Shown one piece after another: positions 48,422 through 49,828 of a stretch of DNA of 64,000 nt. The stretch comes from Leucobacter soli (lineage in GTDB: Bacteria > Actinomycetota > Actinomycetes > Actinomycetales > Microbacteriaceae). The notes under the pieces are model-generated. The model had not been told where the DNA came from and made no database searches. It was given only the letters and a program-made list of their open reading frames with translations. Numbering within the stretch: the stretch's first letter is position 1; every line of letters begins with the position of its first letter. The position numbers and the translations under genes were made by a program. The DNA lies in NCBI GenBank assembly GCA_040394175.1, contig JBEBSS010000005.1:32909-96908 (forward strand), in the 5' to 3' direction.

Positions 48422-48589
48422 ATGAGCGACACCCCGAAGACACGCCCGAACTGGTGGGCCGGAATGCTCGCCTTCCTCTTCTTGCTGCCGATCGGCACTC
48501 TCTCATTCGAGAGCTTCACCTCCGCGGTCATTCTCGCGATCGTCGGCGGGGCCGTTGGGGCGTTCCTCTTCCCCGCAAGGGCGACGTGA
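48422..48589 (+). CDS. Small 2-TM membrane protein (55 aa)
   Basis: MSDTPKTRPNWWAGMLAFLFLLPIG...; GAAGG RBS. Confidence 0.6.
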   Translation: MSDTPKTRPNWWAGMLAFLFLLPIGTLSFESFTSAVILAIVGGAVGAFLFPARAT

Positions 48590-48641: not shown

Positions 48642-48866
48642 TCAGCACCCTGGGAACTCGTCGTCCTCGTAGCGTCGCTTCCGCTGCGGCTTCGTCGTGG
48701 CCTTCAGATACAGCCGGACGAGCGCCTGCTTCTTGATGAGGTAGGCGCGTGGTTCGATCTCGCCGCGTTCCTGTTGCGCCTCGAGCTCGGCGATCGATGC
48801 GGCGGTGTACTCGGCGTCAAAGACCCCGGTACCCCGGTCGAGGTTGTCGTTCTCCCGGACGTTCAT
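48642..48866 (-). CDS. Small hypothetical protein (74 aa), SHOCT-like helix
   Basis: GGAGG RBS before ATG 48866; 'IAELEAQQERGEI....Y..KK..L' resembles SHOCT. Confidence 0.65.
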   Translation of the reverse strand: MNVRENDNLDRGTGVFDAEYTAASIAELEAQQERGEIEPRAYLIKKQALVRLYLKATTKPQRKRRYEDDEFPGC

Positions 48867-49032
48867 TCCCACCTCCAGCGCAAGGTGGGCTGATCACGCG
48901 CACTCACCCGCCGTGTCACTGCTCTCGGCCGCTCCCGAGGTGCAGGGATCACGCGGCGCGGTTCGGCAGCGATCCGCAGGCACGGGAATGCGGCATCCTG
49001 CTCCATCTCCCACCACCCATCTCACCTTGAAT

Positions 49033-49048
49033 TCGAATCCATGTTCGA
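49033..49048. promoter_or_regulatory. LexA (SOS) box
   Basis: Minus strand TCGAAC-ATGG-ATTCGA; one mismatch from the actinobacterial TCGAAC-N4-GTTCGA. Confidence 0.65.
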
Positions 49049-49054
49049 ATCAGA

Positions 49055-49076
49055 ATGATACGCCGCCTGGCTGACA
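49055..49076 (-). promoter_or_regulatory. PafBC-activated (RecA-NDp-type) DNA-damage promoter
   Basis: Minus strand TGTCAG-N10(CCAGGCGGCG)-TATCAT, matching TGTCRG-N10-TA-N3-T with exact spacing. Confidence 0.7.
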
Positions 49077-49190: not shown

Positions 49191-49502
49191 TCAGCCCATG
49201 CCGAGTCCATACCCGAACCAGACGAGCATGGCGAGAAGAAACAGGAGGAGGGGACCCGCGAGCAGGAGGACCAGAGTAGTGATCGCGAGTTTCCGGGGCT
49301 CTCTGCGAACCAACGAAATGATCGCGAGGGTCACACCGGCAACATACGATCCGATAACAACGATGTTCGCGATGATGCCATCGAAACCTCCCGGGACGAG
49401 TCCGCCTCCGAGCTTGAGAAACAGGAACACGGCCCAGCACGCGAGGACGGTGATGAGTGCTGCGCGTCCTCTGGGGGCGAGAGTCGTGTGGGTGTGAGCC
49501 AT
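49191..49502 (-). CDS. Small 3-TM membrane protein (103 aa)
   Basis: Three hydrophobic segments; plausible composition. Confidence 0.7.
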   Translation of the reverse strand: MAHTHTTLAPRGRAALITVLACWAVFLFLKLGGGLVPGGFDGIIANIVVIGSYVAGVTLAIISLVRREPRKLAITTLVLLLAGPLLLFLLAMLVWFGYGLGMG

Positions 49503-49739: not shown

Positions 49740-49828
49740 TGGCGGTGACGGCGGGATTTGAACCCGCGGTAGGGGTTGCCTACACAACATTTCGAGTGTT
49801 GCACCTTCGGCCGCTCGGACACGTCACC
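49740..49828 (-). tRNA. tRNA-Ser (anticodon CGA), 89 nt, CCA encoded
   Basis: GGTGACG acceptor, D-loop GAGCGGCCGAAG, anticodon arm CAACA-CTCGAAA-TGTTG, long variable arm, GGTTCAAATCC T-loop, ends GCCA. Confidence 0.97.

What the first reader, a model, noticed from the sequence alone, without database searches (positions are those of the whole stretch)
48642..49076. Dual PafBC + LexA DNA-damage promoter driving only micro-ORFs
Seen on the minus strand: TGTCAG-N10-TATCAT (49076-49055), then a one-mismatch SOS box (49048-49033) containing an ATG (49042) that reads MDSNSR* and stops. The same frame continues after that single TGA to an ATG at 49006, giving a 47-aa Arg/Pro-rich ORF (MEQDAAFPCLRIAAEPRR...LRWRWE*). 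Its TGA overlaps the ATG (ATGA) of the 74-aa SHOCT-like gene. Known: this promoter plus a LexA box marks doubly controlled actinobacterial DNA-damage genes, and similar layouts precede DUF222/HNH genes. Inference: either an undescribed damage-inducible small-protein operon (possibly a division-inhibitor or checkpoint type) or the regulatory relic of a deleted DUF222/HNH gene that has captured the 74-aa gene.
Basis: partly seen in the sequence, partly recalled or inferred. Interest (0 to 1): 0.7.

Follow-up and report, generated by a model that had tools for sequence, protein, structure and literature searches.

The report
DNA-damage promoter driving small protein gene
A promoter in a Leucobacter genome that carries both actinobacterial DNA-damage control sites is real and conserved, but it serves a genuine, uncharacterised 74-residue protein gene rather than the tiny reading frames in front of it, which look like leftovers of lost upstream genes.

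Summary
On the minus strand, TGTCAG-N10-TATCAT (49076-49055) is followed 6 nt later by TCGAACATGGATTCGA (49048-49033).

The same tight layout occurs 12 times in 10 of 86 Leucobacter genomes and never in a reversed-pattern control. It sits in front of umuDC operons and of operons that hold this gene family.

The promoter does not drive "only micro-ORFs". The 74-aa gene (48866-48642) is real:
- It has a coding-type GC pattern and a good ribosome-binding site.
- It has homologues in 61 of 86 Leucobacter genomes.
- At least half of 28 relatives carry a PafBC-type promoter or an SOS box just upstream.
- Other copies sit inside umuD-umuC or SRAP operons.

The 6-aa and 47-aa ORFs are not conserved and show no coding signature. 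In relatives, the homologous promoter is followed by a 53-aa paralogue, a variable middle gene, and then the orthologue. In the window, only the promoter, a degenerate ribosome-binding site and the first ATG (49020) of that arrangement survive. The 166-nt leader is therefore best read as a deletion scar, and not of a DUF222/HNH gene.

The protein is predicted to be a SHOCT-like helical hairpin with disordered ends. Its function is unknown and no expression data could be obtained.

The parts
49071..49076 (-). PafBC-type -26 element, TGTCAG
   Evidence: Matches the published PafBC motif tGTCgg(N10)tA(N3)T (PMC8635444). It is conserved in 12 other dual promoters from the genus and from metagenome contigs. 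The genome has a tandem pair of WYL-domain genes, consistent with pafBC.
49055..49060 (-). -10 hexamer, TATCAT
   Evidence: It lies 10 nt downstream of TGTCAG. The same TANNNT position is seen in all 13 aligned promoters.
49033..49048 (-). LexA SOS box, TCGAACATGGATTCGA. It starts 6 nt after the -10 hexamer, so it should cover the predicted transcription start.
   Evidence: One mismatch to TCGAAC-N4-GTTCGA. Boxes of the same type precede recA, lexA, rarA, a radical-SAM SplB-like gene and an imuA'-like gene in this genome. The -10-to-box spacer is 5-7 nt (mostly 6) in 13 promoters.
49022..49042 (-). 6-codon ORF MDSNSR*, a chance ORF
   Evidence: Its ATG is in the N4 spacer of the SOS box. The spacer reads ATAG, ATAC, ATAT, ACAC, AAAC, AAAT, ACAG or ATTG in the other 12 promoters, so the ATG is unique to this genome.
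49018..49029 (-). Degenerate ribosome-binding site plus ATG (49020-49018). They are homologous in position to the start of the 53-aa short paralogue in relatives. Here the ATG opens only a 23-codon ORF.
   Evidence: blastn and MAFFT alignments run from the promoter through ...GGTGAGATG, against GGGCGAGATG / GGGTGTGATG in L043 / L040, and then lose similarity.
48867..49032 (-). 166-nt 5' leader between the SOS box and the 74-aa gene. Probably a deletion scar of an ancestral short-paralogue + middle-gene segment.
   Evidence: Relatives have about 500 nt with two genes here. There is no Rfam match, and the fold is no better than shuffles, z = -0.73. There is no TA dinucleotide, hence no TANNNT -10, anywhere in the 188 nt after the -10 hexamer. 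No terminator-like site was found.
48863..49006 (-). 47-codon ORF, probably not a gene. It may be the decayed frame of a lost 'M-family' middle gene.
   Evidence: GC by codon position is flat at 0.71/0.65/0.69, against 0.67/0.40/0.85 for the 74-aa gene. Only scattered low-complexity hits appear in 86 genomes, none next to a family member or a damage motif. An M-family HMM scores this frame 7.4 bits, rank 18 of 49,086 six-frame fragments of the genome. A DNA local alignment to the L034 M gene has p of about 0.005, but it aligns to a different part of M, so the relic assignment is only suggestive.
48642..48866 (-). 74-aa gene, the real cargo of the promoter. It belongs to a Leucobacter-centred small-protein family with a SHOCT-like helical hairpin, a conserved M-x-I-R N-terminus and a basic-then-acidic C-terminal tail.
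   Evidence: It has a coding GC pattern and the sequence GGAGGTGGGA directly upstream of the ATG. Homologues occur in 61 of 86 genus genomes but in only 4 of 101 genera sampled in the family. A search of 1.84 billion representative proteins found 24 clusters. The AF2 model has helices 18-34 and 39-57 at pLDDT above 90. There is no Pfam, NCBIfam or PHROG family above threshold.

Best explanation
This is a single DNA-damage promoter under two controls, and it transcribes a real 74-aa gene through a 166-nt untranslated leader.

How the promoter most likely works (inferred): RNA polymerase uses the TATCAT -10 hexamer only when PafBC, activated by single-stranded DNA, binds the TGTCAG element at -26. 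The LexA box begins 6 nt after the -10 hexamer, so it covers the predicted start site. Bound LexA should therefore block the same promoter. Full expression would need both LexA cleavage and PafBC activation, which makes it an AND gate. This differs from the two separate promoters described for mycobacterial recA.

What the product is: a member of a small-protein family almost confined to Leucobacter. It comes in a short form of about 53 aa and a long form of about 70 aa. The family is repeatedly wired to the damage response. Its genes sit behind PafBC promoters or SOS boxes, inside umuD-umuC operons, beside SRAP genes, or paired with a second uncharacterised family that I call M.

History of this locus: the ancestral operon was promoter, short paralogue, middle gene, long paralogue. 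This genome lost the first two genes. What remains is the promoter, a weakened ribosome-binding site, the first ATG and a scar that happens to hold open frames of 6, 23, 43 and 47 codons.

Function of the 74-aa protein (my best guess, about 40%): a cytosolic accessory or regulatory factor of damage tolerance at stalled forks (translesion synthesis or abasic-site handling). It would act through an oligomerising helical hairpin and a basic tail. It cannot be an obligate UmuC partner.
For: Motifs and coordinates. The PafBC consensus comes from PMC8635444. Tandem WYL genes are present.

The same motifs precede recA, lexA, rarA, a radical-SAM SplB-like gene and DUF2469 (all confirmed by Pfam), and an imuA'-like gene identified by eye, in this genome.

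The tight dual layout occurs 12 times in 10 of 86 genomes, against 0 in the reversed control. The spacer is conserved at 5-7 nt, and the downstream genes are umuDC, the small family or the M family.

The window's promoter is most like the short-X-long operon class: 39-42 of 53 positions match, against 31-38 of 53 for the umuDC class.

Homology to relatives runs through the ribosome-binding site and ATG 49020, then stops.

Relatives with the three-gene operon: L022-L027, L040, L043.

The closest homologue by identity (P0004, 74%) lies in a dual promoter-umuD-umuC-small operon. P0018 lies in umuC-small-SRAP. In another genus the order is SOS box-umuD-short small gene-umuC.

Of 28 long-type loci, 14 have a PafBC promoter or an SOS box within 400 nt upstream. 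Equal-sized downstream controls have none.

The leader has no -10-like hexamer, no Rfam match and no unusual fold.

The 47-aa ORF lacks a coding signature and conservation.
Against: - There are no expression or binding data.
- Half of the long-type loci show no strict motif, including the orthologue in the closest genome held, which sits after an SRAP gene.
- The interior of the leader shows no clear similarity to any relative's short gene, middle gene or umuC 3' end. The deletion history therefore rests on the two homologous ends and on parsimony.
- The two weak hints that the 47-aa frame derives from an M gene disagree about which part of M it matches.
- umuC presence does not correlate with the small gene (19 of 61 genomes against 8 of 25), and this genome lacks umuDC. 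That weakens the translesion-partner reading.
- The structure is a generic hairpin with no informative PDB match.
Confidence: 0.7

Rival explanations
1. The 47-aa Arg/Pro-rich ORF is a real protein. It would be translationally coupled (ATGA) to the 74-aa gene, making a two-gene damage-inducible micro-operon.
For: The frame is open. Its stop overlaps the next start. A GGTGG lies a few bases before its ATG. Its frame gives a weak M-family HMM hit, so it could be a truncated survivor of a real gene.
Against: GC is flat across codon positions. There is no homologue in context in 86 genomes. Many family members have K, R, N or S at residue 2, whose codons often start with A, so ATGA/GTGA can arise without any upstream gene. 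The conserved W..MRE core of the M family is absent. The 74-aa gene has its own strong ribosome-binding site.
Confidence: 0.1
2. The leader is a functional regulatory RNA, such as an attenuator, a small RNA or a uORF-dependent switch, rather than a scar.
For: It is long for an actinobacterial 5' UTR (166 nt), GC-rich, and holds several short ORFs, including one at the conserved ATG 49020.
Against: There is no Rfam match at E<=1. Folding energy is ordinary, z = -0.73. No terminator-like element was found. The sequence is not conserved in any relative apart from a 99.6% identical strain.
Confidence: 0.07
3. Rival on function: the small protein is the lineage-specific SOS checkpoint effector, a cell-division or replication inhibitor in the manner of SulA, YneA, ChiZ, DivS or SidA. 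On this view it rides in umuDC and SRAP operons only to borrow their damage-inducible transcription.
For: It is small, lineage-restricted and damage-regulated. Its presence is uncorrelated with umuC. It is found behind several different damage promoters.
Against: It has no transmembrane segment or LysM domain, unlike YneA, ChiZ and SidA. The model is a soluble hairpin. It is absent from 25 of 86 genomes and present in 2-3 copies in others, which is odd for a core checkpoint. By eye only, a membrane-anchored gene lies divergent from lexA on C34 and could fill that role (not verified).
Confidence: 0.18
4. Rival on function: the small protein and the M protein form a mobile, damage-triggered two-gene module (toxin-antitoxin-like or prophage/ICE-associated) rather than a repair factor.
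For: 13 of 61 M copies lie within 1 kb of a small gene: operonic, or divergent with an SOS box between them. Both families are patchy and multi-copy. One operon abuts an integrase and a tRNA-Ser fragment. The window locus lies about 660 nt from tRNA-Ser.
Against: No PHROG hit for either family. No toxin or antitoxin domain was found in Pfam or NCBIfam; PADLOC was not searched. This genome keeps the small gene without any M gene. Most copies sit in ordinary chromosomal contexts.
Confidence: 0.12
5. The two motifs are a non-functional coincidence or a dead relic, and the 74-aa gene is expressed from elsewhere or not at all.
For: There are no expression data. The SOS box has one mismatch. 69 boxes with at most one mismatch exist genome-wide, most of them inside genes.
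Against: The composite has 0 hits in the reversed control across 86 genomes. Spacing is conserved and homology to working-looking operon promoters is clear. There is no alternative -10 hexamer in the leader. The gene is intact with a coding signature, and the locus is 99.6% identical in a second strain.
Confidence: 0.05

Closest known systems
Dual LexA + PafBC control of mycobacterial recA and imuA'-imuB (PMC8682763); PafBC -26/-10 'sigma adaptation' promoters (PMC8635444, PMC11804915)
   Same: The two regulators' motifs are the same: tGTCgg-N10-tA-N3-T and TCGAAC-N4-GTTCGA. Both serve DNA-damage genes, and in Leucobacter this includes mutagenic polymerase operons.
   Different: In mycobacterial recA the two sites belong to two separate promoters, P1 and P2, each answering to one regulator. 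Here, and in 12 related promoters, the LexA box sits 5-7 nt after the PafBC-dependent -10 hexamer. One promoter should therefore need both signals. That logic is inferred, not tested.
SHOCT domain (Pfam PF09851; PMC3581485)
   Same: A short two-helix hairpin with an E-L-x(3)-L/Q-x(3)-G-x-I-x(4)-Y-x(2)-K-K-x(2)-L pattern. 4 of 20 family members give weak SHOCT hits.
   Different: All hits are below Pfam's threshold, and the window protein has none at E<=1. GvpG and DMAP_binding give equally weak hits. This is a stand-alone protein with its own conserved M-x-I-R N-terminus and a basic/acidic tail, not a C-terminal appendage.
Small accessory proteins of translesion operons: stand-alone ImuB-C (DUF4113) and YolD (PMC3765255)
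   Same: Small proteins encoded in LexA-controlled operons with Y-family polymerases and SRAP.
   Different: No Pfam hit to DUF4113 (YolD was not checked separately). The conserved C-terminal tryptophan that defines ImuB-C is absent. Presence is uncorrelated with umuC.
Lineage-specific SOS-induced small effectors (SulA, YneA, ChiZ/Rv2719c, DivS, SidA, DinI). This comparison is from general knowledge.
   Same: Small, poorly conserved, LexA-controlled.
   Different: No sequence or fold relationship was found. No membrane anchor is present. No phenotype is known.

Membership tests
PafBC-dependent (-26/-10) promoter | Sequence tGTCgg-N10-tA-N3-T | tested here: met
   TGTCAG-N10-TATCAT at 49076-49055. 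Consensus quoted from PMC8635444.
PafBC-dependent (-26/-10) promoter | The organism encodes PafB/PafC (a tandem HTH-WYL pair) and uses the motif at canonical damage genes | tested here: met
   Two adjacent WYL-domain genes lie on C32. The motif also precedes recA and rarA and lies between the DUF2469 and imuA'-like genes. Identity of the WYL pair as pafBC is inferred from the tandem layout only.
PafBC-dependent (-26/-10) promoter | PafBC-dependent induction after DNA damage | not testable with these tools
Actinobacterial LexA operator (SOS box) | Palindrome TCGAAC-N4-GTTCGA, allowing the degeneracy seen at genuine SOS genes of the same genome | tested here: met
   One mismatch, at position 11. 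The boxes before the SplB-like and imuA'-like genes vary at the same position; the recA, lexA and rarA boxes also have one mismatch each, at other positions.
Actinobacterial LexA operator (SOS box) | Conservation of box and position in homologous promoters | tested here: met
   13 promoters have the box 5-7 nt after the -10 hexamer.
Actinobacterial LexA operator (SOS box) | LexA binding and RecA-dependent derepression | not testable with these tools
   Needs EMSA, ChIP or mutants.
SHOCT domain (PF09851) | Match to the Pfam model at its gathering score | tested here: not met
   The window protein has no SHOCT hit at E<=1. 4 of 20 family members hit, best E 0.0018, below cut-off.
SHOCT domain (PF09851) | Two-helix hairpin | tested here: met
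   AF2 helices 18-34 and 39-57, pLDDT above 90. This is a resemblance only.
ImuB-C / DUF4113 accessory proteins | DUF4113 profile match and a conserved C-terminal Trp | tested here: not met
   No Pfam hit. No conserved Trp in alignments A1/A2. Definition taken from PMC3765255.
   Relatives carry a 53-aa paralogue plus a 106-134-aa gene with no Pfam family, or umuD-umuC.
Protein-coding status of the 47-aa ORF | Conservation in relatives and codon-position compositional bias | tested here: not met
   There is only a marginal M-family HMM score.

The most novel reading that the evidence does not exclude
The hairpin protein (short and long forms) and the beta-rich M protein may form a previously unrecognised, Leucobacter-restricted module under joint LexA/PafBC control. 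The module travels with umuDC and SRAP and would modulate translesion synthesis or the damage checkpoint. The tight 'PafBC promoter with a LexA box on its start site' would be a dedicated AND-gate promoter class for mutagenic or risky functions.
Probability: 0.3. Interest if true: 0.6.

Novelty: new variant of a known kind. Interest (0 to 1): 0.4.

Why it matters
Dual LexA/PafBC control is known from mycobacteria, so the promoter is not new in principle. Three things are new here.

First, there is a conserved overlapping architecture that should require both signals at a single promoter. In this genus it is used for umuDC-type mutagenic polymerases and for two uncharacterised small-protein families.

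Second, those two families (the hairpin protein and M) have no Pfam, NCBIfam or PHROG home, and neither predicted fold matches a solved structure.

Third, the locus is a clear case where a tempting set of micro-ORFs turns out to be the debris of operon decay.

For specialists, this gives a cheap entry point for asking what else the actinobacterial damage response switches on beyond the known repair genes. The families are narrow in taxonomic range and no function is shown, so interest is moderate.

Tried and rejected
- Pfam, NCBIfam and PHROGs on the 74-aa, 47-aa, 103-aa and middle-gene products gave nothing above threshold.
- Rfam and folding of the leader gave nothing.
- Foldseek of both predicted structures against the PDB found nothing significant.
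- tblastn and blastn of the leader against relatives' short genes, middle genes and all fetched loci found no clear match.
- The idea that the leader is the 3' end of a deleted umuC was tested and rejected.
- The idea that it is a decayed M-family gene gave two weak and mutually inconsistent hints, so I keep it only as a possibility.
- Comparison with the near-identical strain contig L021 showed 15 differences in 4186 nt, too few to test constraint.
- I looked for an att repeat of tRNA-Ser in the window to test island status and found none.
- Phyletic co-occurrence with umuC showed no correlation, so I dropped 'obligate UmuC subunit'.
- The profile alignment A1 was too diverse for the search for related loci, so I used the single protein instead.
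- Earlier-findings look-ups by place and by sequence returned nothing.

Full report
**Observation**

TGTCAG lies at 49076-49071, followed by ten bases and TATCAT at 49060-49055. After six more bases comes TCGAAC-ATGG-ATTCGA at 49048-49033.

The ATG in the box spacer (49042) reads MDSNSR and stops at TGA 49024-49022. ATG 49006 is in the same frame and opens 47 codons. Their TGA overlaps the ATG at 48866 of a 74-codon gene.

TGTCAG-N10-TANNNT occurs once in the 64-kb window, against 0.07 expected. The published PafBC consensus is tGTCgg(N10)tA(N3)T (PMC8635444).

**Genome setting**

The window lies in a 2.8-Mb, 65.7% G+C draft genome. Record titles of the nearest relatives place it in Leucobacter.

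The genome has 25 TGTCRG-N10-TANNNT sites and 69 SOS boxes with at most one mismatch, most of them inside genes.

Boxes of this type precede recA, lexA, rarA (MgsA) and a radical-SAM SplB-like gene. One also lies between a DUF2469 gene and an imuA'-like gene. All but the imuA'-like gene were confirmed by Pfam.

Only four places combine a PafBC-type promoter with a nearby SOS box: recA, rarA, the DUF2469/imuA'-like pair, and the site under study.

Two adjacent WYL-domain genes, as expected for pafBC, are present.

The box's single mismatch (position 11) is also variable in the boxes before the SplB-like and imuA'-like genes.

**Conservation of the composite**

I searched the pattern TGTCRG-N10-TANNNT-N4-8-TCGAA-N6-TTCGA in 86 genomes of the genus. 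It gave 12 hits in 10 genomes, and none for the pattern read backwards.

A thirteenth example came from a metagenome contig. The gap between the -10 hexamer and the box is 5-7 nt, mostly 6, as in the window.

Downstream of these promoters lie umuD-umuC operons (six cases including L054), operons of the small-protein family treated here (five including the window), and two others. One of those two is an M-family gene.

The window's promoter is closest to the small-protein operon class: 39-42 of 53 compared positions match, against 31-38 for the umuDC class.

**The real cargo**

The 74-aa ORF has the GC pattern of a coding region, 0.67/0.40/0.85 by codon position. GGAGGTGGGA lies directly upstream of its ATG.

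A profile of the family finds it in 61 of 86 Leucobacter genomes, about 78 copies. It is found in only 4 of 101 genera sampled across the family and in none of 16 other families of the order. A search of 1.84 billion representative proteins found 24 clusters.

The N-terminus M-x-I-R is conserved, which fixes ATG 48866 as the start.

There are two forms: a long form of about 70 aa like the window's, and a short form of 53 aa ending in RML.

No Pfam, NCBIfam or PHROG model reaches threshold. GvpG, DMAP_binding and SHOCT give weak hits to some members.

AlphaFold2 predicts a two-helix hairpin (18-34 and 39-57, pLDDT above 90) with disordered ends. Foldseek finds nothing significant in the PDB.

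**Link of the family to the damage response**

- Of 28 long-type loci from different genomes, 14 have a PafBC-type promoter (often 29-49 nt before the start, implying leaderless or short-leader mRNAs) or an SOS box within 400 nt upstream. Equal-length downstream controls have none.
- The homologue most similar to the window's protein (P0004, 74%) is the third gene of a dual promoter-umuD-umuC-small operon.
- P0018 lies in umuC-small-SRAP, and other copies abut SRAP.
- In another genus of the family the order is SOS box-umuD-short small gene-umuC.

Even so, umuC presence does not correlate with the small gene (19 of 61 genomes against 8 of 25). This genome has no umuDC, only a DinB-like gene and one SRAP elsewhere. 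The protein is therefore a damage-regulon member but not an obligate UmuC partner.

**What lies between promoter and gene**

In L022-L027, L040 and L043, the homologous promoter is followed by a ribosome-binding site and the ATG of a 53-aa short paralogue. A middle gene of 106-134 aa comes next, and then the long orthologue. The starts and stops overlap or nearly touch.

Alignments show that the window shares the promoter, the SOS box and the stretch GGTGAGATG with these loci. Its ATG at 49020-49018 corresponds to the short gene's start. Similarity then ends. It resumes about 15 nt before ATG 48866.

The intervening sequence:
- matches no Rfam family;
- folds no better than shuffles;
- has no terminator-like site;
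- contains no TA dinucleotide, so it offers no alternative -10 hexamer.

The dual promoter is thus the only recognisable promoter for the 74-aa gene.

**The micro-ORFs**

The ATG of the 6-codon ORF sits in the box's N4 spacer, which differs in all other promoters.

The 47-codon ORF has flat GC across codon positions. It finds only scattered low-complexity matches in 86 genomes, none near a family member or a damage motif.

Many family members have K, R, N or S as residue 2, whose codons often begin with A, so ATGA or GTGA at the start can arise without an upstream gene.

I tested whether the leader is a remnant of umuC's 3' end and found no similarity.

I also tested whether it is a remnant of the common middle-gene family, M. 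An M-family HMM scores the 47-aa frame 7.4 bits, rank 18 of 49,086 six-frame fragments of the genome. A DNA local alignment to the M gene of L034 has an empirical p of about 0.005. The two alignments place the leader on different parts of M, so I treat the M-relic idea as possible, not shown.

The only near relative with the same leader is a 99.6% identical strain, which gives no test of constraint.

**Mechanism**

Shown by sequence and comparison:
- the motifs, their spacing and their conservation;
- the reality of the 74-aa gene;
- the operon structures in relatives.

Inferred:
- transcription starts about 7 nt after TATCAT, at the first bases of the LexA box;
- LexA occupancy therefore blocks the PafBC-dependent promoter;
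- expression needs both LexA cleavage and PafBC activation by single-stranded DNA (PMC11804915, PMC8635444).

Mycobacterial recA, by contrast, has separate LexA- and PafBC-controlled promoters (PMC8682763).

The protein's role is unknown. I favour an accessory or regulatory role in damage tolerance at stalled forks (about 40%). The alternatives are a checkpoint effector (about 18%) or a mobile, toxin-antitoxin-like pair with M (about 12%).

**Second family**

The M family has the consensus PYIQIDTDTWIVMRE..PKAVI.RVTDT.GEARYLL.TW.P.PA.RRMVGIY.SL.EA.AAVPW. It occurs in 38 of 86 genomes, often in several copies.

- 19 of 30 loci have PafBC or SOS motifs directly upstream.
- 13 of 61 copies lie within 1 kb of a small-family gene, either operonic or divergent with an SOS box between them.
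- All database names are 'hypothetical protein [Leucobacter]'.
- Its predicted beta-rich fold has no PDB match.
- This genome has no M gene.

**Verdict**

It is partly wrong: the promoter does not serve only micro-ORFs, and there is no HNH relic.

Noticed in passing
L040:1717-2037 (+), L034, L041, L094-L123; absent from the window's genome: A second uncharacterised Leucobacter family, which I call 'M' (about 90-135 aa, a conserved core of about 75 aa with W..MRE and AVPW motifs). It is found in 38 of 86 genomes and is often multi-copy. 19 of 30 loci have PafBC or SOS motifs upstream, and 13 of 61 copies are adjacent to the small hairpin gene. The AF2 model is beta-rich with 55 residues at pLDDT of 90 or more, and has no PDB fold match.
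   Followed up: partly
L090 (another genus of the same family): A short-form member of the small family sits between umuD and umuC in an SOS-boxed operon (box TCGAAAGTATGTTCGA upstream of umuD).
   Followed up: partly
window 49740-49828 (-) and L022:2244-2320: tRNA-Ser(cga) lies about 660 nt upstream of the promoter. In L022 a 3' fragment of the same tRNA plus its hairpin sits between a phage-type integrase and the homologous operon. The operon family therefore neighbours a tRNA-Ser integration site. No att repeat was found in the window.
   Followed up: partly
window 49191-49502 (-) and 48422-48589 (+): Two small predicted membrane ORFs (103 aa and 55 aa) flank the locus. Neither has a Pfam, NCBIfam or PHROG family. 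Both were also called as genes on the near-identical contig L021.
   Followed up: no
G000 C4:98303-98374: A divergent pair, an imuA'-like gene and a DUF2469 gene, shares an SOS box (TCGAACAAACTTTCGA) and a PafBC-type promoter (TGTCAGCCGGAGCGTCTAAGAT). This resembles the dual control reported for mycobacterial imuA'B.
   Followed up: partly
G000 whole genome: This genome (94% complete) has no umuDC operon. It has only a DinB-like Y-family gene on C27 and one SRAP gene at C19:7364-8041, while 27 of 86 congeners have umuC.
   Followed up: partly
window 48867-49054 (-): The 188 nt after the -10 hexamer contain no TA dinucleotide at all.
   Followed up: no
L022:2660-3004: The middle gene of the L022/L043 operon (114 aa) is unrelated to the M family and also has no known domain. 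The middle slot of the operon is therefore exchangeable.
   Followed up: no
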